Source: Candidatus Thorarchaeota archaeon (GTDB taxonomy: Archaea; Asgardarchaeota; Thorarchaeia; Thorarchaeales; Thorarchaeaceae). Taken from it: a DNA stretch of 45,374 bases. Of this stretch, positions 32,035 through 44,875 are shown piece after piece. The notes beneath the pieces were generated by a model, which worked only from the letters and a program-made list of their open reading frames with translations, was not told the DNA's origin and did no database searches. Position 1 is the first letter of the stretch, and each line of letters starts with the position of its first letter. A program made the translations under genes and the position numbers. The stretch is from assembly GCA_048882325.1 (NCBI GenBank), contig JBHLRS010000024.1, forward strand, positions 1-45,374, in the 5' to 3' direction.

Positions 32035-33927
32035 TCACACTTCGCGTGAGAAAATTGCTTGCTTAGAAACCAGATTTGGAAGTAGAAGCCGTTGCCGAGG
32101 AGCAAAACTGGTCTTTTCTTGGATCTCTTTTGCTAGTTCTTCTACAGTCATTTTGACCTGGTCTTTCATCTCTCGACGACGAATAGCTAATTTACCACTA
32201 CTTCTCTCCTTCTCGCCTATAACTGCTATATAGGGAATCCAGAGTTTCTCCGCAGATCGTACCTTTTTCCCTACAGTCTGAGACCGGTCGTCAATCTCAT
32301 ATCGGATTCCAGCCTCTTCCAGCGCTTTGCCCAGCTCTTGACAATAAGGAACGAAGCTGTCATCCACTGGAGCAAAACGGACCTGAACAGGCGTCATCCA
32401 GAGGGGGAGATGCGGGACATCACCTTGTTTCATGTTCTTGTACGCTTGTTCCAAAACACCATATAGTATTCTCTCGACTGCTCCAGAGGGAGAAGTATGT
32501 AGAATCAATGGATGTTTCTCCTTGCCATCAGCGTCTACGTAGGTAATATTGAATCTCTCACCATTTTCGACATCAATTTGAACAGTACTAAGACATCCTG
32601 CTTTCTTCTGAGCATCGACAACGTTCCACTCACACTTGAAGATGAAGTAAGCATATCTCTCGTCGAACACTTCCACCAAGACAGGCTTTCCTACCTTGTC
32701 TACTACTTTTTGTGCGAACTCCTTGTTCCTTTCGTAGAAGTCCCTCAGAATTCTGAACGAAACCTCAATAGACACTTCAAGCTCGTTGAGAAGTTTCTCG
32801 ACAAACTCCATTTGTCGCAACACTGCCTCCATTGCCATCTCTTCATCAGCGACAATCTCGTGAATATCTGGCATCGTAAAGGCCCTCAAGCGTCTCATGC
32901 CAGCAAGCTCGCCACTCTGCTCACGACGATATGATGGTGCTATTTCGAATAGCTTCAATGGTAATTGCTTATAGGAAACAGTTGCCTGAGAAATCGTCAG
33001 GAACTGGCCAAAACATGCGCTGAACCTCGCGAAATATTCGTGCTCTCCTGATTTTACCACGTACTGTCTCGATGGGAACCTTTTGAGGTATGACTTGAGT
33101 GATGGGTGTTCATAGTCGTAGATCAATGGAGTTTGGAGAACATGCGCCCCATAGTCTATCATCTCCGCAGTGACCCTTTCCTCGATGGCCTTCTTTAGTG
33201 TGAGTCCTCTCGGAGGCCACCTAAAGTTTCCAGCATCTGAACCTGGCTCGTAATCAACAAGCTCAAGCTGCTTCATAAGCTCAATGTGTGGAGGAGGTTC
33301 TTGCGCAGTTCTATCCTTCGCAGTTTCGTAATCCACATAGAGCTTTAGCTCATCGAATTTAGCATAATTAAACTTCTTTGCATCCGTGACCTTTCCACCA
33401 GGTTCCATGATGTAAAAAGTGGAGGTGGCTTTTTCCTCCGCGACCAGTGCAGTGAGGTCCTCACCCTCTGTCACTTCGACATCCGCATCCTGCGCTATTG
33501 CAGTTGAGAGGTCTAGGACCTTCGACCGCTCAGCAAGTGGGTGGCCTTTACAATGAATCTCGAATGCCTTATACCAACCAAAAGGAACTCGAACAACATT
33601 AAATCCTCTCTCTTGCAGATCCTTTGCTACAACCTTCAGGAGTTTGAGGGCAACAGATGGCTTTGAGGGGTTTTCACTAAGGTGGACCCATGGATAGACC
33701 ACTATATTCTTCTCCTTGACCTCATCTGCAGCGCTTGCAATCATATCAGCAGTTGCTTTTGCAGCAGCGGTAACATCCTTGGTATCTGTTGTTTCAGCAG
33801 CGATGAAATTGACTAGGCATGAGTCCTCAGTCTTGTAGAACTTGTCTTTCACTGCCTCTGCATTCTTGAGTGCTTTTCTCTTCGCCTCATAAGCGAAACC
33901 ATCGCTGTGAATCTGTAGCATTCTCAA
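32035..33927 (-). CDS. thrS: Threonine--tRNA ligase, archaeal type with N-terminal editing domain
   Basis: MRMLQIHSD, YPWVHLS, PFGWYKAF.I.CKGHPLAE, FSACFGQF, YRREQSGEL.GMRRLRAFTMPD, STVQID, LHTSPSGAVER. Confidence 0.96.
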   Translation of the reverse strand: MRMLQIHSDGFAYEAKRKALKNAEAVKDKFYKTEDSCLVNFIAAETTDTKDVTAAAKATADMIASAADEVKEKNIVVYPWVHLSENPSKPSVALKLLKVVAKDLQERGFNVVRVPFGWYKAFEIHCKGHPLAERSKVLDLSTAIAQDADVEVTEGEDLTALVAEEKATSTFYIMEPGGKVTDAKKFNYAKFDELKLYVDYETAKDRTAQEPPPHIELMKQLELVDYEPGSDAGNFRWPPRGLTLKKAIEERVTAEMIDYGAHVLQTPLIYDYEHPSLKSYLKRFPSRQYVVKSGEHEYFARFSACFGQFLTISQATVSYKQLPLKLFEIAPSYRREQSGELAGMRRLRAFTMPDIHEIVADEEMAMEAVLRQMEFVEKLLNELEVSIEVSFRILRDFYERNKEFAQKVVDKVGKPVLVEVFDERYAYFIFKCEWNVVDAQKKAGCLSTVQIDVENGERFNITYVDADGKEKHPLILHTSPSGAVERILYGVLEQAYKNMKQGDVPHLPLWMTPVQVRFAPVDDSFVPYCQELGKALEEAGIRYEIDDRSQTVGKKVRSAEKLWIPYIAVIGEKERSSGKLAIRRREMKDQVKMTVEELAKEIQEKTSFAPRQRLLLPNLVSKQAIFSREV

Positions 33928-34578: not shown

Positions 34579-34662
34579 ACTAACTGAATGCTCGAACCAT
34601 CTTGATTTCACATCCTCGCTGAACATCAACTATATTAGGATTTATTCCAAAACAGATGAATA

Positions 34663-34752
34663 ATGAAAATCTTGACTGAAAATGCAGTTGCCACTTCAAT
34701 ATACATGACAGTATACTGTCAGTATAGTGGCGTCTATTATAGCTATCATTAG
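34663..34752 (+). CDS. Putative Tyr-rich leader peptide MKILTENAVATSIYMTVYCQYSGVYYSYH
   Basis: ATG 34663 to TAG 34750-34752. Six Tyr in the last 16 sense codons, including a YY pair. TATATTA at 34631. Lies 132 nt before the first gene of a tyrosine biosynthesis operon. Confidence 0.6.
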   Translation: MKILTENAVATSIYMTVYCQYSGVYYSYH

Positions 34753-34847
34753 CTGATAGACTGCTAGTCAAGATCCTGCAACTCGCAGATTCTTATTTTG
34801 GTGGTTCTATGGCTCTAAAACGAAATCTAGTGGATGGGAGGTCTCCC
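34669..34847 (+). promoter_or_regulatory. Attenuator-like structured leader RNA
   Basis: ATCTTGACT/AGTCAAGAT, GCCAC/GTGGC around the palindrome TGACAGTATACTGTCA, GTCTAT/ATAGAC, then CTGC-AACTC-GCAG followed by TTCTTATTTT, and GGGAG-GT-CTCCC. Confidence 0.55.
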
Positions 34848-34884
34848 GACAAATGGACAAATCATTCAGTGGAGGGAAGAGATA

Positions 34885-36273
34885 ATGACTGAATTAAGTA
34901 TCCTTCGGGCCGAGATTCAGAAAGTCACCCTGGAAATCATAGATTTGATTGGAAAACGCAATGAACTAGCAAGAGAAGTTGCAAAGGAAAAAACCCGGAC
35001 GGGAGCACCATTAGTAAATAGGGAGATTGAACAAAATCTCCGAAATTTGGTCCTTGAGAAAAGCCATGATTCATTGATTGATCCAAAGTTCGCAATGCGA
35101 TTGCTCAATCAACTAATCATAGAGTCCATTCGAACTCAAAAGAGCCACATTAAATCACCAATCATCCCAAACGCATACACAACACTCTTGAAAGCACGAA
35201 GACTCGAACAGAGTGGTAGAGATATCATTCACCTAGAGGTTGGTGAACCTGATTTTGGGCCTCCAGCTCAAGTTGCTAGATCGCTTGATGAAGCTGTAAG
35301 AGCCGGAAGAACATGCTACACAGACTCTGCAGGAATTGAGGGGCTCAGGATTAAGATTGCAGAACACTTGAACTTGAAGAGTGGAACTGCACTATCTGCT
35401 GAAAATGTAGTCGTATCTGTTGGAGGTCGATTGGCACTCACTCTAAGTATTGCCACAAATCTGATTCCTGGTGATGAGGTAATAATCATTGACCCATCGT
35501 ATCCTGCATATTCAGAAATCGTGAAACAGTCTGGTGGCAGACCAGTCCATATAACAACAAGACTCGAGGAGAACTGGAATCCAGACATTGGAGAGCTTGA
35601 AAGCAGTATCAACAAGTCAACAAGGATGATGATACTGAACAATCCATGTAACCCAATAGGAAAGAGTCTATCCAAATCGGTCTTCGAGGATATTGTAGAG
35701 CTGGCAGTCGGAAACGACCTCACTATCGTAAGTGATGAGGTCTATTCAAATTACACCTTCTCTTCAAGAACCAGTATCTTGGAATTTCCACATAGTAAGC
35801 ATGTCTACATAGATTCGTTCTCCAAGACTTATGGAATGACTGGTTTCAGACTAGGATTCGCTGTTTCAGATGTAGATACAATTCAACGGATTACGAAACT
35901 GCAGAATCTCTTCTTGACTTGCGTTCCAGAGTTCATCCAATATGCAGGTATCAGCGCGATCGATAGCACTGAGGATGCAAAACGATTTGCAGAGTTAATT
36001 GAGAAACGAATGAAGGTTATGTGTAATGAACTGGAAAATGCGCCATTGTCATTCTATAGGCCTGATGGCGGGTTCTATATTTTCCCTAGACTTGATAATG
36101 ATTCTCTGACTGGGATTGAGTTCTCTGATAGACTTCTCTCTGAGATGGGAGTTGCTGTAGTACCGGGTGATGCATATGGATCAGAATTCTCTCGTTTCTT
36201 CAGGATTTCAATTTGTCAATCTGAAGAAGACCTCATTGCAGGGGCAAAGATGATCAAGGAGGTGCTGAGGTGA
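34885..36273 (+). CDS. Chorismate mutase (AroQ) fused to a class I/II PLP aminotransferase
   Basis: N-terminal LRAEI...LIGKR..LA..VAKEK...N.EIE (AroQ-like). GEPDF, NNPCNPIG, SDEVY, SFSKTYGMTGFRLG. ATG 34885 follows GGAGGGA. The ORF track starts it at 34834. Confidence 0.85.
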   Translation: MTELSILRAEIQKVTLEIIDLIGKRNELAREVAKEKTRTGAPLVNREIEQNLRNLVLEKSHDSLIDPKFAMRLLNQLIIESIRTQKSHIKSPIIPNAYTTLLKARRLEQSGRDIIHLEVGEPDFGPPAQVARSLDEAVRAGRTCYTDSAGIEGLRIKIAEHLNLKSGTALSAENVVVSVGGRLALTLSIATNLIPGDEVIIIDPSYPAYSEIVKQSGGRPVHITTRLEENWNPDIGELESSINKSTRMMILNNPCNPIGKSLSKSVFEDIVELAVGNDLTIVSDEVYSNYTFSSRTSILEFPHSKHVYIDSFSKTYGMTGFRLGFAVSDVDTIQRITKLQNLFLTCVPEFIQYAGISAIDSTEDAKRFAELIEKRMKVMCNELENAPLSFYRPDGGFYIFPRLDNDSLTGIEFSDRLLSEMGVAVVPGDAYGSEFSRFFRISICQSEEDLIAGAKMIKEVLR

Positions 36274-37118
36274 GAATAGCGGTTATCGGAGGGGCTGGAC
36301 AAATGGGAAATTGGTTGGTAAACCATTTCATAGAGCGTGGAATGTCTGTCATCATTTCTGATCCTCGGAAACCAAAGGACATTGCCATTGAGTCTACTAC
36401 GAATAATCAGATTGCTGTGATTGATGCTGATGTTGTCTTAGTTTCAGTACCAATGGAATTGACGCCCAAAACTATTCAAGAAGTAGTTCCACACATGAAA
36501 TCCGATTCTATCATTTGCGAAATATCTACTCTTAAAGCAAAAGCGATTGAAACCCTGCTTCATTCGGATACTAATCATGTCCGACCAGTAAGCCTACATC
36601 CACTCTTTGGACCAAGAGCAGATGAATTACAGAAGAGATTCGCGTTGGTTCCTATCAGGAACCTTGAGGAAGAGAAGAAAATTGCTGAGCAATTGTTTCC
36701 AGATTCGGACTTTGTTATTGTGGAGAGAGAGAGCCACGATCGAATGATGGCACTGACATTGTCATTACCTTACTTCACAAACATGGTTCTTGCTTCAGTC
36801 TTTCATTCAGAAGATATTCGATTAATGGAACAACTGAGTGGTACGACCTTCAAGATTCAATTCATGTTGACTGGGAGTATAATGTCTCATTCATCTGGAT
36901 TTCAGACAGCGCTTCAAACAGAGAATGAATATGCCTTGGAATTGCTTACTGACTTTCGAAGGAAATTCGAAAACCATCTCGAACTTCTAAACCAAGACCG
37001 AGAAGAATTCGAGAGGACATATCGGACTCTTCAGAGTAGTATTGGTGGCAAAGTGAACTTAGACATCAAGTATGAGGAAATGTACAAATTTCTCAAGATC
37101 ATGGAGGGGGTTTTATGA
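36270..37118 (+). CDS. tyrA: Prephenate/arogenate dehydrogenase
   Basis: IGGAGQMG, VSVP, EISTLK, SLHPLFGP, HDRMMA. GTGA overlap with the upstream gene. Confidence 0.88.
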   Translation: MRIAVIGGAGQMGNWLVNHFIERGMSVIISDPRKPKDIAIESTTNNQIAVIDADVVLVSVPMELTPKTIQEVVPHMKSDSIICEISTLKAKAIETLLHSDTNHVRPVSLHPLFGPRADELQKRFALVPIRNLEEEKKIAEQLFPDSDFVIVERESHDRMMALTLSLPYFTNMVLASVFHSEDIRLMEQLSGTTFKIQFMLTGSIMSHSSGFQTALQTENEYALELLTDFRRKFENHLELLNQDREEFERTYRTLQSSIGGKVNLDIKYEEMYKFLKIMEGVL

Positions 37119-38203
37119 TGTCCGTTAGGTTTGAGGTGAAAACGCGATCTAGAACATATCCAGTGACAATTGGTCAGAATATCCTTAACTCAATAAGTGA
37201 GTATCTCAAGAAGCCAACTGGTCGCATCTTTGTCATAACTGATGATGTTGTTTCAAATCTCTACCTTCAGGAACTCCTCCAAGGATTGCCAAGCTCTGAG
37301 CTGGAAACTGTAGTCTTTGAGCTTGAGCACGGTGAGGAATCAAAGACTCTTACTTCAGCAAGCAAGTTGTATGACTTCCTTGTGGAAAATTTTGCTACGC
37401 GATCTGATACTATACTTGCATTTGGAGGTGGAGTGGTTGGAGATGTCGCAGGGTTCGTAGCATCTTCATTCAAGAGAGGAATGCGTTTAGTTCATGTACC
37501 AACAACTCTTCTAGCGCAGGTAGATTCAACTGTCGGGGGAAAGACTGGGATCAATCTCGCAGCAGGAAAGAACCTAGTGGGTACATTCTATCAGCCTCAT
37601 GAAGTTGTGATTGATGTATGCATTCTTAGATCACTCTCTGAGAGTGAATTTGCTGCTGGCATTGCGGAAGTCATCAAATATGGAGTTATCATGGATTACC
37701 AACTTCTCCAGTTTTTGATGAATGAAACAGTGAAGATTCTCGAGAGGGATCCAGGAACGGTTGCCACACTTGTAGCGAAGGCTCTTGAAAACAAGAAAAC
37801 CATCATTGAACTAGACGAAACGGAAGATAGAGGAAAGCGAGAGGTACTCAATTTTGGCCATACTATTGGACATGCGATTGAAACGTGTTCGAACCATTCA
37901 ATACTGCATGGTCAAGCTGTAGCAATCGGAATGGTCGAGGAGGCTCGTTTGGCCGTAGAGAGAGGACTCCTAGAAAGAGCAGCTCTGGAATCATTGATTC
38001 AGGTCCTTTGCAGGTTTGGTTTACCGACAGTGATTCCGAGAGAGATCGATGTTGAGAAGATCAATGAAGTAGTTCGACAAGACAAGAAGGTCAGGTCTGG
38101 CCAACTGATTATTCCAGTATTGATTGGATTAGGTAAGACCGAGATTATGGTTGTTAGAGATTTGAACCTGATTAGTAACAATGGAGAAGATATCCAATGC
38201 TAG
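37115..38203 (+). CDS. aroB: 3-dehydroquinate synthase (type I)
   Basis: GEESK, GGGVVGDVAGF, PTTLLAQVDS.VGGKTGIN, KNLVGTFYQP, LNFGHTIGHAIE, LHGQAV. Confidence 0.95.
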   Translation: MMSVRFEVKTRSRTYPVTIGQNILNSISEYLKKPTGRIFVITDDVVSNLYLQELLQGLPSSELETVVFELEHGEESKTLTSASKLYDFLVENFATRSDTILAFGGGVVGDVAGFVASSFKRGMRLVHVPTTLLAQVDSTVGGKTGINLAAGKNLVGTFYQPHEVVIDVCILRSLSESEFAAGIAEVIKYGVIMDYQLLQFLMNETVKILERDPGTVATLVAKALENKKTIIELDETEDRGKREVLNFGHTIGHAIETCSNHSILHGQAVAIGMVEEARLAVERGLLERAALESLIQVLCRFGLPTVIPREIDVEKINEVVRQDKKVRSGQLIIPVLIGLGKTEIMVVRDLNLISNNGEDIQC

Positions 38204-39195
38204 TCGTAATGTACAAGAATGCAACAAATGAACAAGTAGAGAAAGTGCTCGAGATAGTGAAGGAGTTGGGCTATACACCAATTCCGAATCCTGGAGCACA
38301 GAGAATGGTTATCAACATAACAGGTGATGTGGACCTCCTGGACTCCAATAGAATAGAGGGTCTAGCAGGGGTCATGAAGGTCATCCGGGTCACAAAACCC
38401 TATAGACTTGCAGACATCGAAGTGAAATCAGGCCCGACTGTGATTGAGGTTGGAGATGTTGAGATTGGTGGTGGTACCCGAGTCATTATTGCTGGTCCCT
38501 GTAGTGTTGAGTCTAAGGACCAAATTGTTGAAGCCGCACAAGCAGTGAAGGACTGCGGAGCAGATATTCTCCGAGGAGGTGCATACAAGCCAAGAACCTC
38601 ACCTTATTCGTTCCAGGGTCTGGGAAGAGAGGGATTGAAGCATCTTGAAATTGCACGACAGCAAACAGGTTTGCCATTCATCACTGAAGCTGTTGACATT
38701 GAGAGCTTTTCTCTTGTTGAAGCAACCGCAGACATCGTGCAAATAGGTGCAAGGAATATGCAGAACTATTCCCTGTTAAAACGGGCAGGGAGGTCTCCAA
38801 AACCCATCTTGTTGAAAAGAGGGATGTGGGCAAACCTGAATGAACTCCTTGCAGCTGCGGAATATATCATGGCGGAAGGTAATCACAACGTTATACTATG
38901 CGAACGAGGAATCAGGACTCAGAGCAATCATGTGAGATTCACGTTGGATCTTGCAAGTATTCCTGTTCTACGCGGACTAACACATCTTCCACTCATAGTA
39001 GACCCAAGCCACGCAGCAGGAAAAAGGGACATTGTGATTCCTCTTGCCCGTGCAGGACTTGCGGTTGGAGCTGATGGATTAATCATCGAGGTTCATCCAC
39101 ATCCAGAAGAAGCCCTGGTTGATGGGGCGCAATCACTTACGGTTGAGATGTTTCGCGACTTCATGATATCAATCAATGAGGTAGATAGTGGTTGA
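38197..39195 (+). CDS. aroF: DAHP synthase type I-beta with N-terminal regulatory (ACT/ferredoxin-like) domain
   Basis: IAGPCSVES, RGGAYKPRTSPYSFQG, QIGARNMQN, LCERGIR, DPSH, DGAQS. Confidence 0.94.
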   Translation: MLVVMYKNATNEQVEKVLEIVKELGYTPIPNPGAQRMVINITGDVDLLDSNRIEGLAGVMKVIRVTKPYRLADIEVKSGPTVIEVGDVEIGGGTRVIIAGPCSVESKDQIVEAAQAVKDCGADILRGGAYKPRTSPYSFQGLGREGLKHLEIARQQTGLPFITEAVDIESFSLVEATADIVQIGARNMQNYSLLKRAGRSPKPILLKRGMWANLNELLAAAEYIMAEGNHNVILCERGIRTQSNHVRFTLDLASIPVLRGLTHLPLIVDPSHAAGKRDIVIPLARAGLAVGADGLIIEVHPHPEEALVDGAQSLTVEMFRDFMISINEVDSG

Positions 39196-39889
39196 TAGAG
39201 AGAGGTGTGCTTTGATGACCAAGAGATTGTGTATTTGTTTGACAGAACCTACTCTTCAAGACTGCAGAAGGTTGGTCTTGTCAACAGATGCAGATCTCAT
39301 TGAGCATAGATTGGACTTCATGGATGAAATTTCGAGTCTGAATGAAATCTATTCAGCAACCGATAAACCAATCATTGCAACATGTCGTTCGCGCCACCAT
39401 GGGGGGAACTTCGCTGGTGATGAATTAGAACGAGAAAGAATTCTAGTCAGTGCTATCAAACAAGGTGCCTCATTTGTTGATATTGAGATTGATACTGAAC
39501 ATCAATACTTGGCGGAAATCCATAATGCAGCAAGGAACTACAATTGTCAACTGATAATTTCGAAGCATTTCACAAACATCACCCCAGATACCACAAAACT
39601 TCTTGACTTAGTCAAACAAATGAGAGAAGCTAGAGCAGACATCCTGAAGATAGTGGTGACTCCAAAATCAATCTCTGATTGTGGAAGAGTGATTCAACTA
39701 TACAGTCATGTAACGTCGAATACTAATCTCATTGCATTCGCAATGGGCAAACTGGGGAAGTTCACAAGAATCGCAGCTCTGTTTCTTGGTGCTCCGTTCA
39801 TGTATGTATCACAGGATGAGGGAAAGCCTGCAGCACCTGGACAAATATCACTCTCAGAAATGAGAGCAATTGTGAGGTCTCTGTTATGA
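39188..39889 (+). CDS. aroD: Type I 3-dehydroquinate dehydratase
   Basis: IEHRLD, IATCR...GG, VDIE, ISKH, DILKI, FAMG..G..TR, APGQ. Confidence 0.92.
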   Translation: MVDRERCALMTKRLCICLTEPTLQDCRRLVLSTDADLIEHRLDFMDEISSLNEIYSATDKPIIATCRSRHHGGNFAGDELERERILVSAIKQGASFVDIEIDTEHQYLAEIHNAARNYNCQLIISKHFTNITPDTTKLLDLVKQMREARADILKIVVTPKSISDCGRVIQLYSHVTSNTNLIAFAMGKLGKFTRIAALFLGAPFMYVSQDEGKPAAPGQISLSEMRAIVRSLL

Positions 39890-40725
39890 AGCAGCTCATT
39901 CTCATTGGAGATCCTGTAGGTCACTCATTGAGTCCATTGATGCATAATGCGGCACTCAGGGAAATGAGCCTCGATATGGAATTCAGGTATGAGGCCAGAC
40001 CAACCCGTTTCGATGAGCTTGAATCCCAGGCTATATCAATTAGAAATGGGATGATTGAGGGCGCAAATATCACAGTGCCCTACAAGAGAGAGATAATGAG
40101 ATTCCTTGATGAAGTATCAAAAGTAGCTTCAGTTGTTGGTTCAGTGAATACCCTCTATCGAGAAGGAGATAGAGTACATGGAAACAACACCGATGTATCT
40201 GGATTCCTAAAGTCGCTCAGAGAGAAGGCAATCACTCTCAATGGCAAGAGAGCAACCATTTTAGGTGCTGGAGGCGCAGCAAGGTCTGTTGCTTATGCCT
40301 TAATCCAGTCCAGAGTTGCTAGACTTGATATCTTGAATCGAACCTTAGCAAATGCCATAGAGCTAGCTACAAGTCTACGTAATCAAGCAACATGTGAGTT
40401 ACATGTCTGGGAAGACCCGACATCATTTGATTTCGATAAGACTGACCTTGTAGTTAATTGCACACCTATTGGGATGCATGGCCACTCTATTAGTCAATCT
40501 CCACTAGATGGGATTGACCTTCACAGCGAACTAACTGTTGTAGATTTGGTTTACAATCCTCGAAGAACGAAGCTGCTTCTAGATGCTGAAGTCGCTGGTT
40601 GTCTAACTATAGATGGCACTGGAATGCTCGTTCATCAAGGTGCTGAATCTCTTGAATTATGGGTTGGGGAGAAACCCCCTATCGAGGTGATGAGGAGTGC
40701 TGTACTTGATGCACTAGGAGGATGA
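39886..40725 (+). CDS. aroE: Shikimate dehydrogenase
   Basis: HSLSP.MHN, NITVPYK, NTD, GAGGAA, NCTPIGM, DLVYNP, MLVHQG. Confidence 0.95.
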   Translation: MKQLILIGDPVGHSLSPLMHNAALREMSLDMEFRYEARPTRFDELESQAISIRNGMIEGANITVPYKREIMRFLDEVSKVASVVGSVNTLYREGDRVHGNNTDVSGFLKSLREKAITLNGKRATILGAGGAARSVAYALIQSRVARLDILNRTLANAIELATSLRNQATCELHVWEDPTSFDFDKTDLVVNCTPIGMHGHSISQSPLDGIDLHSELTVVDLVYNPRRTKLLLDAEVAGCLTIDGTGMLVHQGAESLELWVGEKPPIEVMRSAVLDALGG

Positions 40726-40729
40726 TGAT

Positions 40730-41257
40730 ATGATTGAGGGTGTTGCTAAGAACATTGGATTGATCGGTTTTATGGGAACTGGCAAAACAGTAGTTGGGCA
40801 AGCTTTGGCAGACCGTTTAGGTAGACAATTCTTCGACACTGATACACTGGTCGAAACAATGGCAGGAAAGACCATCTCTCAAATCTTTCAGGATGAGGGA
40901 GAGGCATCATTTCGTCAACTTGAATCAATGGTTGTGGCGGCGGTCTGTAATAAGGAATATGCAGTGATTAGTTTTGGAGGAGGAGTAGTACTCTCAAAGT
41001 CGAATGTAAGAGCAATAAAAGAAAGCAGTATTGTTGTCTTATTGAGAGCGTCAGTTGAAACAATCCTTGGAAGAACATCATCAACTAATACAAGACCACT
41101 CCTTCACTCATCAAACAATGGGAGTCCAGTCCGAATCTTGTCCCTTATTGAAACTCGAAGAAGCATGTATGAATCAATGATGGACCTTTCTATAAACACA
41201 GATGCTCTGCAGGTGGATGAAGTTGCGAATGAGATCATCCGGAGGTTGGAAATTTGA
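40730..41257 (+). CDS. aroK: Shikimate kinase, bacterial NMP-kinase type
   Basis: GFMGTGKT P-loop, DTD, GEASFR..E, GGG, RPLL. Confidence 0.93.
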   Translation: MIEGVAKNIGLIGFMGTGKTVVGQALADRLGRQFFDTDTLVETMAGKTISQIFQDEGEASFRQLESMVVAAVCNKEYAVISFGGGVVLSKSNVRAIKESSIVVLLRASVETILGRTSSTNTRPLLHSSNNGSPVRILSLIETRRSMYESMMDLSINTDALQVDEVANEIIRRLEI

Positions 41258-42546
41258 AAGCTATCGTCCAGCAAACAGAACTCAGAGGTTCCATCCGTGC
41301 GCCCCCTTCCAAAAGCTACACTCACAGAGCAATAGTGTGCGGTCTCTTATCAAAAAATCAAACTCAAATATCAAATCCTCTTTTTTGTGAAGACACCCAA
41401 GCTTCTCTAAGATTATCGAGGATGATGGGTGCTCAAATTACCAATCAAGAGGACCTTCTTGTAACTGGGCCAGAAACCCTTGTCGCACCAACATCTGAGA
41501 TGGATTGTGGTGGATCGGGGACAACCATTCGCTTGTACACAGCTCTTGCGGCATTGACCAATGGACCTTGTGTTCTAACAGGAGATCAATCCTTGCAGGC
41601 TAGACCCATGACAGACCTACTTCATGCCCTAGACCAACTTGGAATCAAAGCCACTTCGATAAGGAATGATGGAAAACCCCCGGTCGAAGTAATAGGAAAA
41701 GGTCTGTCTGGAGGCAAAGTGAGAATTCGAGGGGATATATCATCTCAGTACATCAGCGGTCTTCTATTCGCGTGCTCCAAATCTGAGGAAGACACGACAA
41801 TCGAGATTACAACTAGACTGGAATCCAGACCATATGTTGAGATGACGCTTGAGGTCATGAAGCACTTCGGGGTGAGTGCCTGGCCTTCAGAATTGTGGGA
41901 TTCTTTCTCAGTTCCAGGAAACCAGGAATACATCGCTTCACACTATGAGATTCCAGGAGATTTCTCTTCCGCAGCATTTCTTCTGGCTGCAGGAGCACTT
42001 CATGGAAAAGTGAGAGTCACAAATCTCAATAAAGGGTCTCTACAAGGTGATGCACTGATTATTGAACTTCTCAAGAAAATGAGTGCATTGATTATTGAAA
42101 AGGAGGATGGCTATGAGGTTAGTGCATCTGAGTTAGAGCCTATCGAAGTTGATGTTTCTCACACTCCAGACTTAGTACCCGTCCTTGTGGTTCTAGCTAG
42201 TCAAGCAGATGGTTGCTCACGAATCTATAATGCGCAGAGACTGAGATTCAAGGAAAGTGATAGATTGACAACAATGTCAACAGAGCTCAAAAAGATGGGA
42301 GGTCGGGTCAAGCTAACTGATGATGGAATTGATGTTGAAGGACCTACGAAACTTCAAGGTGCTATGATTGAAACCCATAATGATCATAGAATTGCAATGG
42401 CCTGCACAATCGCTGGTCTGATTGCTTCGGGATCAACAGTAATTTTGGGTGCTGAGTGTGTTTCCAAGAGCTATCCAAATTTCATGGAGGACATTCAATC
42501 GCTAGGTGCGGAGATATCTATTAACAAAAAAGAAGGAGGAGAATAA
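41254..42546 (+). CDS. aroA: EPSP synthase (3-phosphoshikimate 1-carboxyvinyltransferase)
   Basis: PPSKSYTHRA, SGTTIR, RPM, SSQYISG, SRPY, GDFSSA, KESDR, DHRIAMA, KSYP. Confidence 0.95.
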   Translation: MKAIVQQTELRGSIRAPPSKSYTHRAIVCGLLSKNQTQISNPLFCEDTQASLRLSRMMGAQITNQEDLLVTGPETLVAPTSEMDCGGSGTTIRLYTALAALTNGPCVLTGDQSLQARPMTDLLHALDQLGIKATSIRNDGKPPVEVIGKGLSGGKVRIRGDISSQYISGLLFACSKSEEDTTIEITTRLESRPYVEMTLEVMKHFGVSAWPSELWDSFSVPGNQEYIASHYEIPGDFSSAAFLLAAGALHGKVRVTNLNKGSLQGDALIIELLKKMSALIIEKEDGYEVSASELEPIEVDVSHTPDLVPVLVVLASQADGCSRIYNAQRLRFKESDRLTTMSTELKKMGGRVKLTDDGIDVEGPTKLQGAMIETHNDHRIAMACTIAGLIASGSTVILGAECVSKSYPNFMEDIQSLGAEISINKKEGGE

Positions 42547-42547
42547 T

Positions 42548-43648
42548 ATGACATTTTCATTTGGAAAGGAGTTTAGAATTCATGTCTATGGTGAAAGTCA
42601 TGGTGAAGGTATTGGGGTTGTTGTTGAAGGAGTACCGCCAGGACTCAATATGGATGAGGAGATGATTCAACAAGAATTAGACAAACGTCGTCCCGGAGGT
42701 AGCGAAATTACCTCATCAAGATCTGAGCAAGACCAGGTTTCGATTCATAGTGGGATGTTCAATGGGAAATCAACTGGTGCACCAATCACCTTGTCTATTT
42801 CCAATAAGGATGTTGACTCTTCTTCATATGAGGTAATCCGTCACACGCCTCGACCCGGACATGCGGATTATACTGCAAGAGTGAAATTTGAAGGGTATAA
42901 TGATTACCGGGGCGGTGGTACTTTTTCGGGAAGAATGACCGCTGCTTTTGTGATGGCTGGTGCCTTAGCAAAGTCAATCCTCAAAGAACATGGAGTGATG
43001 GTTCTCGCACATGTTGTTCAGATTGGACAAGTCAGTATTAATGAGGAGGTTTCTGACTACGAAATCAGTAAGAACGTCTATGAAAATCCAGTTAGATGTG
43101 CTCATGCAGATATTGTTTCTGAGATGACGAATGAAATTGCAGAAGCCAAAGCTGATGGCGACTCAGTTGGCGGAATAGTTGAATGTAGAGTTTTAGGTGT
43201 AGAACCAGGGATTGGGGAACCCCTCTTTGATTCTGTTGAGAGTGTCATCAGCCATGCCATGTTCAGTATCCCTGGAGTCAAGGGAGTAGAATTCGGTTCT
43301 GGATTTGCTGGTTCATTGAGAAGGGGTTCAGAGAATAATGATTCACTAATCCTCAGAGAAGGTAAAATTGACTGGGCAAAGAATGATTCAGGAGGAATTC
43401 TTGGAGGAATCACGAATGGAGCCCCCATTGTTTTCCATGTTGCATTAAAACCGACCCCAAGCATTTCGAGGGCACAACGCACTATCGACCTTGAGAAGAT
43501 GGAGGAAACGTCAATACAGACAAAGGGGCGCCATGACCCATCAATCGTGCCAAGAGCTGTCCCAGTTGTCGAAGGACTTGCTGCTGTTGTACTAGTGGAC
43601 CTATTGATGAGAGCTAGCTCGTTACGACTTGCTAGATCTGAAGATTAA
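42548..43648 (+). CDS. aroC: Chorismate synthase
   Basis: GESHG, RRPG, RPGHAD, RGGG..SGR.TA, DGDSVGG, KGVEFG, GGILGGI, KPTPSI, GRHDP. ATG 42548 follows GGAGGAG. Confidence 0.96.
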   Translation: MTFSFGKEFRIHVYGESHGEGIGVVVEGVPPGLNMDEEMIQQELDKRRPGGSEITSSRSEQDQVSIHSGMFNGKSTGAPITLSISNKDVDSSSYEVIRHTPRPGHADYTARVKFEGYNDYRGGGTFSGRMTAAFVMAGALAKSILKEHGVMVLAHVVQIGQVSINEEVSDYEISKNVYENPVRCAHADIVSEMTNEIAEAKADGDSVGGIVECRVLGVEPGIGEPLFDSVESVISHAMFSIPGVKGVEFGSGFAGSLRRGSENNDSLILREGKIDWAKNDSGGILGGITNGAPIVFHVALKPTPSISRAQRTIDLEKMEETSIQTKGRHDPSIVPRAVPVVEGLAAVVLVDLLMRASSLRLARSED

Positions 43649-44875
43649 GATGACTACTATTATGATAACGATACTCGATCCCGCAGAAACAGCAAGTAGG
43701 AGGGTTTGAATCTCGCCATTTTCAGGACCTGTAGCGCTACTAGTTGTTGTGGTGTCTTTTGAAGTCGTGTAATCAACAGTAACAATTTCGGTGGTTGTAG
43801 TTGAGCAAGGACCTGTAGTGAAACCAAATGGATAATGGTCTACGCTTCCAGCAGGACCAGATATGTGGTAATATCCTGTTCCACAGTAATCACTCCAGAT
43901 ATTCCCAATCTCATCAATAGGTACATCCCAATGATTGTTTTTTCCGGCATCATATGCACATGTTCCATTTGATGGTCCGATAAGATTCGCAACTACAGTA
44001 ATGTTGTATGTTCCATCACCTAGATAGACGCAGTACTCAGTACATTCGCCTATGAAATCTTCCCAGACCCAAGATCCATTTACCCACCACATCTCAAGAC
44101 CTATGACACACTCGACGATGGAAGTATTCCATATCGCCAAATTCCATGAACCATAGCTGAAGATACCGATGTTATCGAATCCTTCATCCTCTAAGTAGGT
44201 GCTTGAAATGATATTGCTAGAAATGTATGTACTGTCATCGTAGAGGCATTGGATTCCGTAGTTTGGAGCAAAACAGATCCAATTCTCTGTAATAGAGCAC
44301 TGATCAGTTAAAGTAAGATTTACACCGACCCAATCATTGTAAGACAAGTTGTTTTCATTAAGGACGATATACCTACTACGAGAGACGGTCACTCCTGTCG
44401 CGCAATCATGGACCGTGTTTTGATATAGAGAAATGTGACTTGAGTCATCAATGAAGATTCCAGTTTCCTTCATGTGAGCCACCGAATTCTCAATAGCTCC
44501 ATTAGTACTATTGATAATCCTGATCCCGGTTGAAAATGTGTATTGAGTATCATAGTCTCCAGTTTCACAGTTTACGATTGCCCAATGAAGATCCACATTC
44601 CTAATTGTAATGCCATCATTGTAAAACTCAATTATGTAGTCAGAGATTGAAATTGGGGAATGAGCTTCACCGGTTCCCGTCCAATTATTCGCCTCTTTTT
44701 GAGCAAGAAAATCACTGTTGTTCATTATCACAATCGGTTCGTGAGGCGTCCTTGTGGTCGCAGGATAATAGTTTTCATAAGAAATAGGAACCTGCAGGAC
44801 AGTTCCACAGCTGCTGAACAAGACACTGATTAATGATAACATGATACTCGAAAATAGTACACTCTTCTTTCTCAA
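43622..44875 (-). CDS. Secreted NosD/CASH-like right-handed beta-helix protein with Thr-rich stalk and C-terminal TM anchor
   Basis: HEPIVI..NSDF...W.G.G....P, repeated GI.(I/L)......I..N turns, GNIWSDY.G...Y.I.G....D.YP, TTTTE/TTTTSS stalk, TM helix. Confidence 0.8.
   Translation of the reverse strand: MRKKSVLFSSIMLSLISVLFSSCGTVLQVPISYENYYPATTRTPHEPIVIMNNSDFLAQKEANNWTGTGEAHSPISISDYIIEFYNDGITIRNVDLHWAIVNCETGDYDTQYTFSTGIRIINSTNGAIENSVAHMKETGIFIDDSSHISLYQNTVHDCATGVTVSRSRYIVLNENNLSYNDWVGVNLTLTDQCSITENWICFAPNYGIQCLYDDSTYISSNIISSTYLEDEGFDNIGIFSYGSWNLAIWNTSIVECVIGLEMWWVNGSWVWEDFIGECTEYCVYLGDGTYNITVVANLIGPSNGTCAYDAGKNNHWDVPIDEIGNIWSDYCGTGYYHISGPAGSVDHYPFGFTTGPCSTTTTEIVTVDYTTSKDTTTTSSATGPENGEIQTLLLAVSAGSSIVIIIVVILIFRSSKS

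What the first reader, a model, noticed from the sequence alone, without database searches (positions are those of the whole stretch)
34631..34884. Tyr-rich leader peptide in front of an archaeal tyrosine-biosynthesis operon: candidate ribosome-sensed attenuator
Seen: an ORF below the track cut-off, 34663-34752, encodes MKILTENAVATSIYMTVYCQYSGVYYSYH, with 6 Tyr in the last 16 codons (5 in 15 if the inner ATG 34705 is used). A TATA-like TATATTA at 34631 would put the transcript start within a few nt of the ATG, so translation would be near-leaderless. The downstream operon makes chorismate and then Tyr (chorismate mutase, TyrA, aminotransferase) and has no prephenate dehydratase or trp genes, so the enriched amino acid is exactly the end product. 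Established: bacterial trpL/pheL/hisL/thrL attenuators follow this logic. To my knowledge leader-peptide attenuation is not a well-established mechanism in archaea, and Tyr-specific leaders are uncommon even in bacteria. Inference: ribosome stalling at Tyr codons controls read-through into the aro/tyr operon.
Basis: partly seen in the sequence, partly recalled or inferred. Interest (0 to 1): 0.92.

Follow-up and report, generated by a model that had tools for sequence, protein, structure and literature searches.

The report
Tyrosine-sensing leader gene in Asgard archaeon
A tiny tyrosine-rich gene, built into an RNA fold that can flip between two shapes, opens the tyrosine-making operon of Thorarchaeota (Asgard archaea); it very probably lets the ribosome sense tyrosine supply, a control known from bacteria for which I found no published archaeal case.

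Summary
Observation confirmed. The 29-codon ORF (34663-34752) is the only one of 2045 upstream small ORFs in this genome with 6 Tyr in 16 codons. It is kept in 28 related Thorarchaeota loci: start 33-36 nt after the BRE/TATA motif, frame always open, all three stop codons used, Tyr 135/11/18 by frame. The peptide itself is barely constrained (pN/pS 0.7-0.8). The ORF lies in a covarying nested RNA fold. The strand after its stop pairs either with the leader's 5' end or with a U-rich tract plus the ribosome-binding site of a second, overlooked small ORF (34809-34892), which ends on the first gene's start in all 28 loci. A copy left behind without the operon has decayed. Bathyarchaeia aro operons carry Phe/Tyr/Trp-rich leaders (27/27). 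Tyr-tRNA sensing by the ribosome is about 0.75 likely. Best mechanism (0.45): stalling hides the U-tract from the aCPSF1/FttA terminator; a translational switch is the main rival. There is no RNA or bench evidence. No published archaeal case was found. This scan has reported the same leader in another Thorarchaeota genome, and aromatic leaders in Bathyarchaeia and DPANN.

The parts
34628..34637 (+). BRE/TATA-like promoter element
   Evidence: AA[G/C]TATA[A/T]TA is kept 33-36 nt before the leader start in 28 loci, with a freely varying spacer. The transcript start (about 34660) is inferred, not mapped.
34663..34752 (+). Leader ORF (uORF1), 29 codons, near-leaderless, Tyr-rich C-terminal part
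34669..34677 (+). 5' arm of outer helix P1 (pairs with 34766-34774)
   Evidence: Perfect 9-bp inverted repeat, present in the MFE; compensatory changes in relatives
34690..34731 (+). Helices P2 (34690-34695 with 34726-34731) and P3 (hairpin 34706-34721); Y21 lies in the 3' strand
34732..34761 (+). Helix P4: the codons Y25-Y28 pair with the bases just after the stop
   Evidence: MFE; conserved within the genus group; not formally counted
34756..34774 (+). Switch strand after the stop: pairs either upstream (P4/P1) or downstream with the U-tract and SD
   Evidence: Constrained folds. Own-locus pairing beats cross-group pairing in 27/28 (downstream helix) and 28/28 (P1) loci.
34776..34788 (+). 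Small hairpin P5, variable in sequence and length among relatives
34790..34799 (+). U/pyrimidine-rich tract, candidate aCPSF1/FttA target
   Evidence: Mean 8.4 pyrimidines per 10 nt; U4 within 12 nt of the SD in 15/28 loci, and between stop and SD in 20/28
34800..34804 (+). Shine-Dalgarno GGTGG of uORF2
   Evidence: A GGTG core lies 9-11 nt before an ATG in all 28 loci
34809..34892 (+). Second small ORF (uORF2), 27 codons; its stop overlaps the start of the first gene by 8 nt
   Evidence: 25-52 codons with unconserved sequence, yet the stop lies at -11..+2 of the gene start in 28/28 loci, and at -4 in 14
34885..36273 (+). Chorismate mutase (CM_2) - class I/II aminotransferase fusion, first gene
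36270..43648 (+). tyrA, aroB, DAHP synthase, aroD, aroE, aroK, aroA, aroC (overlapping or abutting genes)

Best explanation
A ribosome-sensed attenuator wired to archaeal termination. A ribosome loads on the near-leaderless AUG and melts P1. When Tyr-tRNA is plentiful, it runs to the stop and leaves. In most relatives a ribosome at the stop also covers the switch strand; in this genus the fold P1-P4 re-forms and ties the strand up. Either way the U-rich tract emerges unpaired, and aCPSF1/FttA cuts the nascent RNA and ends transcription before the first gene. When Tyr-tRNA is scarce, the ribosome parks on the Tyr codons, the freed switch strand pairs with the U-tract/SD region, and RNA polymerase reads through. 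Once the stall clears, uORF2 is translated, shields the remaining untranslated stretch and hands ribosomes to the chorismate mutase gene by stop-start overlap. Shown: anatomy, conservation, covariation of both rival helices. Strongly inferred: translation of both ORFs and sensing of Tyr-tRNA (about 0.75 over all ribosome-sensing variants). Inferred only: the output step (termination by aCPSF1/FttA) and its direction.
For: The frame is open in 28/28 loci against a 0.14 chance for a shuffled leader; lengths are 29-32 codons with indels in threes; stops TAG 11, TAA 9, TGA 8; Tyr by frame 135/11/18. pN/pS is 0.70-0.79 with no third-position bias, so the codons matter and not the peptide. The last codon is Tyr in only 1/28. 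P1-P3: 89.6% paired, 24 double changes, 0/500 shuffles. Constrained folding with the 5' part held open: opening the SD-start window costs 8-9 kcal with the ribosome on the Tyr cluster, 4.3 at the stop and 4.8 with none. For the window's U-tract it costs 0.5 kcal with no ribosome and 5-7 when stalled. In 21 Bathyarchaeia leaders the U-rich tract costs 7.0-7.7 kcal to open when stalled three or more codons before the stop and 2.6 at the stop. One copy per genome, at this operon, plus one decayed orphan. The aCPSF1 gene is present. FttA acts on U-rich RNA 30-36 nt behind the 3' end (PMC11616081), and archaeal terminators need no hairpin (PMC8716108).
Against: The U-tract is weak: the window has one U4 there, 13/28 loci have none beside the SD, and Methanococcus aCPSF1 needs two U4 tracts for efficient binding (PMC8716108). 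The same helix hides the uORF2 SD, which by itself would switch the first gene off during starvation. If P1 may re-form around the ribosome, the effect shrinks to about 1 kcal or less ('keep5'). In the window a ribosome at the stop does not free the U-tract in the 'drop5' model (6.4 kcal). The footprint (A-site -15/+12) is assumed. 13/28 leaders start with GTG, although 12 of these have an in-frame ATG at codon 5.
Confidence: 0.45

Rival explanations
1. Translational attenuation through uORF2. The ribosome senses Tyr-tRNA in the same way, but the output is access to ribosome-binding sites. Either stalling hides the uORF2 SD and so stops uORF2 ribosomes from occluding the first gene's own SD (double negative), or the real footprint is longer than modelled and a ribosome on the last Tyr codons covers the anti-SD strand. 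Downstream genes follow by coupling and polarity.
For: The best-conserved rival helix centres on the SD, and both strands change together between genera (GAGTCAC/GTGATTC versus GACGCTAC/GTGGTGTC). uORF2 overlaps the first gene's start in 25/28 loci, and that gene has its own SD-like motif in 25/28. There is a bacterial precedent: leaderless polycysteine ORFs act on an SD, not on termination (10.1101/834739).
Against: With the standard footprint, stalling closes rather than opens the SD. Overlaps of -4, -8 and -1 are the ones that favour positive coupling (PMC12548453), which argues against occlusion.
Confidence: 0.22
2. Product-induced arrest (TnaC- or AAP-like): excess Tyr, or a pathway metabolite, stalls the ribosome on the nascent peptide, the anti-SD helix forms, and the operon is switched off.
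For: This fits the computed direction for the SD (stalled = closed). A short S-G-x-Y core is nearly invariant.
Against: The peptide upstream of the core drifts almost neutrally. The S-G core is fixed at nucleotide level, as a P2 strand. Bathyarchaeia and Aigarchaeota leaders share aromatic codons but not the peptide.
Confidence: 0.08
3. A ligand-, tRNA- or protein-binding RNA switch (riboswitch-like, T-box-like or TRAP-like), in which UAU/UAG repeats are a binding or pairing motif and the ORF is incidental.
For: Strong nucleotide-level conservation of UAUAGUGG; UAU:UAC is 107:28 against about 60:40 in the genome; the fold is stable (z -3.6).
Against: No Rfam hit even at E<=1. Frame, triplet indels, three different stop codons and in-frame Tyr excess are not explained. 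In other lineages the RNA sequence changes completely while the aromatic codons persist.
Confidence: 0.1
4. Both small ORFs are translated only to load ribosomes and protect the 5' region. They raise expression constitutively and sense nothing.
For: Leader ORFs have been proposed to raise downstream translation by reinitiation (PMC4833913, abstract only); uORF2 fits this role.
Against: It does not explain the Tyr cluster, its match to the pathway, or two mutually exclusive co-evolving helices.
Confidence: 0.07
5. A DNA operator palindrome for a transcription factor; the Tyr codons are a by-product.
For: A perfect 16-bp palindrome at 34706-34721.
Against: The perfect palindrome is private to this genome. 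Relatives keep a hairpin with G-U pairs, changed arms and other loop lengths. There is no second copy in the genome.
Confidence: 0.03

Closest known systems
E. coli pheL-pheA and trpL-trpE leader-peptide transcription attenuators (also hisL, thrL)
   Same: A short upstream ORF with clustered codons for the pathway's product, an unconserved peptide, mutually exclusive helices overlapping the ORF and its stop, and a biosynthetic operon downstream (PMC11802643).
   Different: Archaeal TATA promoter and near-leaderless start; a nested multi-helix fold instead of hairpins 1:2/2:3/3:4; no conserved G+C terminator hairpin followed by a long U-run; a second, coupled uORF; no Rfam match.
Corynebacterium glutamicum aroR-aroF attenuator; Tyr-tRNA-sensing attenuator listed for aroF in Shewanella
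   Same: Aromatic (Phe/Tyr) control codons ahead of DAHP synthase-containing operons (PMC11802643; PMC2659441 Table 3).
   Different: AroR has only Phe-Tyr-Phe and responds to Phe, not to Tyr. Here there are 3-6 Tyr per leader and, in this genome, no Phe codon. No sequence relation was tested or seen.
Mycobacterial leaderless polycysteine sORFs (Ms5788A)
   Same: Leaderless AUG/GUG start, about 29 codons, control codons at the C-terminal end, one large stable fold, SD sequestration (10.1101/834739).
   Different: There the control codons themselves pair with the SD, so stalling frees it. Here the anti-SD strand lies after the stop, and stalling is predicted to free that strand.
aCPSF1/FttA-dependent archaeal termination; termination-reinitiation coupling
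   Same: A U-rich unpaired target without need of a hairpin; -4/-8/-1 stop-start overlaps (PMC11616081, PMC8716108, PMC12548453).
   Different: In the passages read these are described as general termination, polarity and coupling, not as an amino-acid-sensing switch.

Membership tests
Leader-peptide (ribosome-mediated) attenuator | Short 5' ORF enriched in codons for the operon's end product, conserved across relatives | tested here: met
   28/28 loci; Tyr by frame 135/11/18; top of 2045 sORFs
Leader-peptide (ribosome-mediated) attenuator | Peptide sequence otherwise unconstrained | tested here: met
   pN/pS 0.70-0.79, no third-position bias
Leader-peptide (ribosome-mediated) attenuator | Mutually exclusive RNA helices whose balance depends on ribosome position | tested here: met
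   Covariation and constrained folding; computational only, and the size of the effect depends on the model
Leader-peptide (ribosome-mediated) attenuator | Leader is translated and expression responds to the charged tRNA | not testable with these tools
   No RNA holder was listed; the organism is uncultured
Classical trpL/pheL-type transcription attenuator | Intrinsic terminator: G+C hairpin directly followed by a run of about 7-8 U | tested here: not met
   P5 is short and variable; the tract has one U4 in the window and none beside the SD in 13/28 loci
Classical trpL/pheL-type transcription attenuator | Match to Rfam Trp/Phe/His/Thr/Leu leader models | tested here: not met
   No match at E<=1, and none at the gathering score in relatives
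Translational attenuator (Ms5788A type) | Stalling on control codons frees the downstream SD | tested here: not met
   The predicted opening cost rises on stalling; this depends on the assumed footprint
aCPSF1/FttA terminator | Unpaired U-rich tract, best with two U4 runs; factor encoded | tested here: inconclusive
   Factor present; tract pyrimidine-rich, but U4 beside the SD in only 15/28
T-box riboswitch | Stem I with specifier loop and T-box antiterminator bulge | tested here: not met
   No Rfam hit; the GGTG core varies as an SD (GGTGG/GGTGA/GGTGC) at a fixed distance from an ATG
Arrest peptide (TnaC/AAP type) | Conserved residues in the nascent peptide upstream of the arrest site | tested here: not met
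   only the structure-bound S-G core is fixed

The most novel reading that the evidence does not exclude
Archaea, including an Asgard lineage, have their own form of amino-acid attenuation. A leaderless Tyr-rich ORF gates access of the CPSF73-like nuclease aCPSF1/FttA to a U-tract, and a second, sequence-free ORF then relays ribosomes to the operon. This would be a two-uORF, termination-factor-based amino-acid sensor with no described counterpart.
Probability: 0.35. Interest if true: 0.9.

Novelty: new variant of a known kind. Interest (0 to 1): 0.78.

Why it matters
Codon-sensing attenuation is a textbook bacterial device. Eight literature searches of the held library found no archaeal case; the library lacks most subscription papers, so older predictions could be missed. 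If real, it shows that archaea regulate after initiation by using ribosome speed. It would also give a natural, compact reporter for open questions: whether archaeal transcription-translation coupling is tight enough to regulate, and whether FttA is excluded by ribosomes, which PMC11616081 still frames as a hypothesis. In an Asgard lineage it bears on the origin of uORF-based amino-acid control. The element is about 230 nt and can be tested in Thermococcus or Haloferax.

Tried and rejected
Rfam: nothing. BLAST within the genome: single copy, so not a repeat or MITE. RNAalifold on the mixed MAFFT alignment found only P2, because the window's genus has about 13 extra bases after the stop; the groups were then aligned separately. 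A pattern search across Bathyarchaeia gave mostly chance hits (controls rang as often) and was dropped. Genome-wide TATA-to-ATG distances gave no peak, so the leaderless start rests on conserved spacing only. Sequencing runs: no RNA holder was listed, which is not evidence either way. No matching leaders were seen before pheA (11 loci), ilvB or hisG (some of these are internal genes), so this is not a genome-wide regime. The match between leader codons and genome content is only partial. Trp codons occur in the Bathyarchaeia leader of G086, which has trp genes in the operon, and not in G087, where trpA was not found; but G088 keeps Trp without a detected trpA. By my count, Phe is in the last 12 codons for 5/8 Thorarchaeota leaders with pheA and 3/14 without: suggestive only, with kin not independent and MAGs incomplete. 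Stops in the other two frames (0/28 open) were not used as main evidence, because ATGA and TATAG force them. DAHP synthases of four other Asgard genomes are internal genes, so their leaders were not seen.

Full report
1. Observation. The sequence is as described. ATG 34663 to TAG 34752 gives 29 codons with Tyr at 14, 18, 21, 25, 26 and 28, and TATATTA lies at 34631. The operon behind it is a chorismate mutase-aminotransferase fusion starting at 34885, then tyrA, aroB, DAHP synthase, aroD, aroE, aroK, aroA and aroC. The nearest named relatives of the first gene are Thorarchaeota MAGs at 49-58% identity. The genome has pheA on another contig; trpA, hisG and ilvB were not found in it (93% complete). 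Among 2045 ATG-started intergenic ORFs of 12-45 codons lying before a same-strand gene, this is the only one with 6 Tyr in 16 codons.

2. Conservation. Upstream of orthologues of the first gene, 28 loci from at least six genera carry the same element. A BRE/TATA motif lies 33-36 nt before an ATG (15 loci) or GTG (13), with a freely varying spacer. That frame is open in 28/28; a shuffled leader of this length is open with probability 0.14. Relatives are not independent, but about six lineages are. Lengths are 29-32 codons, the stop is TAG 11, TAA 9, TGA 8, and Tyr counts by frame are 135, 11 and 18. Outside the Tyr cluster the peptide drifts almost neutrally (pN/pS 0.70 within the genus group, 0.79 elsewhere). 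This is the pattern of an ORF that must be translated but whose product does not matter. A covariance model found exactly one copy in each of 23 of 86 family genomes. Of these, 21 lie directly before this operon, and one lies at a contig end whose sequence continues into the operon's contig (G067). The last (G058) sits before a methyltransferase gene in a genome where the first gene was not found (74% complete). That copy has a degenerate TATA, a lost start, a one-base deletion, an in-frame stop and no SD: a relic that decayed once the operon was gone. In Thorarchaeota that still have trp genes (G007, G014), the Tyr/Phe leader sits before a two-gene mutase-aminotransferase/tyrA unit, while the common aro genes lie in the trp operon. 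So the leader travels with the Tyr branch.

3. RNA anatomy. The window leader folds far better than shuffles (z -3.6) into an outer helix P1 (34669-77 with 34766-74) that encloses P2/P3 and P4. It is followed by a small hairpin, a U-rich tract (34790-99), an SD (34800-04) and an ATG (34809). In 17 leaders outside the genus group, P1-P3 are 89.6% paired with 24 double-sided changes, above all 500 shuffles and all slid registers (relatedness inflates this). The strand after the stop has a second partner, the U-tract plus SD. Each locus pairs better with its own partner than with partners from other groups, for P1 (28/28) and for the rival helix (27/28), with group means of -11 to -20 kcal against -7 to -10 for shuffled partners. 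Both strands of the rival helix change together between genera. The perfect DNA palindrome at 34706-21 is simply P3 and is not perfect in relatives, so the operator explanation fails.

4. A second small ORF. The SD and ATG open uORF2 (34809-34892). Its length (25-52 codons) and sequence are not conserved, yet its stop falls within -11 to +2 of the first gene's start in 28/28 loci, at -4 in 14. The -4, -1 and -8 overlaps are the usual coupling geometries (PMC12548453), and many of the first genes start with TTG or GTG. I infer that uORF2 is translated and coupled to the first gene.

5. Other archaea. In the family of one Bathyarchaeia MAG, all 27 aspartokinase genes of the aro-operon type have an upstream ORF with 5-9 Phe/Tyr/Trp in its last 12 codons, nearly all with a hairpin starting at the stop. 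ADH synthase or DHQ synthase follows in 26 of them. Two more distant aspartokinase paralogues, internal genes of another operon and so a weak control, have none. One subgroup shares the P2 core and an S-G-Y motif with the Thorarchaeota leader. Two Aigarchaeota-type loci have a leaderless ORF ending in Tyr/Phe/Trp codons inside a similar nested fold. This answers the concern that such ORFs arise by chance among many candidates: here the orthologous position was fixed first and then examined.

6. How it probably works. I folded each leader with a ribosome footprint held unpaired at successive codons. With the 5' part kept open, as by a following ribosome, the U-tract/SD region is hardest to open when the ribosome sits on the Tyr cluster (8-9 kcal) and easiest at the stop (4.3) or with no ribosome (4.8). 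For the window's U-tract the figures are 5-7 kcal stalled and 0.5 released. Bathyarchaeia show the same sign. For a biosynthetic operon, stalling should mean ON, so the paired state should be the ON state. That fits masking of a termination signal rather than of a ribosome-binding site. Archaeal termination uses unpaired U-rich RNA bound by aCPSF1/FttA about 30-36 nt behind the polymerase, without a hairpin (PMC11616081; PMC8716108), and the factor is encoded here. At that moment the uORF2 AUG would still be inside the polymerase, so FttA would act before a ribosome could load (my inference from those distances). The weak points are real. The tract has a single U4 here and none beside the SD in 13/28 loci. 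The same helix hides the uORF2 SD. The effect nearly vanishes if P1 can re-close around the ribosome, and in this genus a ribosome at the stop does not reach the strand that pairs with the U-tract. I therefore give 0.45 to termination control, 0.22 to translational control through uORF2, 0.08 to product-induced arrest, 0.10 to a ligand- or protein-binding RNA, 0.07 to a non-sensing enhancer and 0.03 to an operator. Sensing of Tyr by the translating ribosome in some form is about 0.75.

7. Comparison. It works like pheL/trpL and C. glutamicum aroR (PMC11802643), and in layout it most resembles the mycobacterial leaderless polycysteine ORFs (10.1101/834739). It is not a member of the classical family in the strict sense: there is no intrinsic terminator and no Rfam match. 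It also fails the defining test of the mycobacterial type, because stalling is predicted to close the SD. A Tyr-tRNA-sensing attenuator is listed for Shewanella aroF (PMC2659441), so Tyr sensing as such has bacterial precedent. No archaeal example turned up in eight searches of the held library.

8. Earlier notes of this scan. After forming this reading I found that the scan had noted the same element in another Thorarchaeota genome (e1-5583595) and aromatic leaders in Bathyarchaeia and DPANN. These are unchecked AI notes and are not counted as support. A later check of one of them priced the sensing claim at 25/100 because conservation had not been re-made; here it was re-made from the data. 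The short texts of those notes did not mention the coupled second ORF or the decayed orphan copy.

9. Verdict. A real, conserved cis-regulatory leader; a new variant of leader-peptide attenuation, in Asgard archaea; output mechanism unproven. Interest 0.78.

Noticed in passing
L320 (G014:C110), L321:10068-10130 approx. (G002:C5), L322 (G008:C111), L324 (G007:C28): just before trpE: All four Thorarchaeota trpE-first operons examined (four genera) begin with a 16-20-codon ORF, in three of them about 25 nt after a TATA-like motif, carrying an R-R-D-x-x-W motif with a single conserved Trp codon and two AGGCGG-like repeats. It overlaps the 5' end of the trpE frame. It could be a Trp leader or a repeated operator.
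   Followed up: partly
L312:1500-1660 (G058:C148:1983-2135): Decayed orphan copy of the leader (start lost, frameshift, in-frame stop, SD missing) before a methyltransferase gene; the operon was not found in that genome.
   Followed up: yes
L120:8451-11383 and L123, L148, L037, L038: In some Bathyarchaeia the mutase-aminotransferase/tyrA pair is transcribed divergently from an aspartokinase-led aro operon. The aromatic leader belongs to the aspartokinase side, and aspartokinase is co-operonic with the archaeal ADH/DHQ route.
   Followed up: yes
L134:3116-3260, L140:3110-3260: Aigarchaeota-type asd-aro operons have a leaderless Tyr/Phe/Trp-ending ORF whose G-rich 5' end pairs with a C/U-rich tract after the stop.
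   Followed up: partly
window 34885-43648; The operon uses bacterial-type DAHP synthase, AroB and AroK and is patchy in the family (about a quarter of 86 genomes). Gene order in G007/G014 suggests it arose by loss of the trp genes and joining of the aro genes behind the Tyr unit.
   Followed up: partly
L021 upstream of the first gene (G007): The divergent G007 leader appears twice in series: the second small ORF also contains a Y-F-S-G-Y-Y stretch.
   Followed up: no
whole genome: ARAGORN found no tRNA-Tyr, -Phe or -Trp in this assembly, only tRNA-His among the four asked for; probably unassembled or intron-containing.
   Followed up: no
window 32035-33927 (-): Archaeal threonyl-tRNA synthetase with editing domain; no Thr-rich leader stood out in the genome-wide sORF scan.
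   Followed up: partly
window 43622-44875 (-): A beta-helix (NosD-like) protein converges on aroC with a 27-nt overlap of the 3' ends.
   Followed up: no
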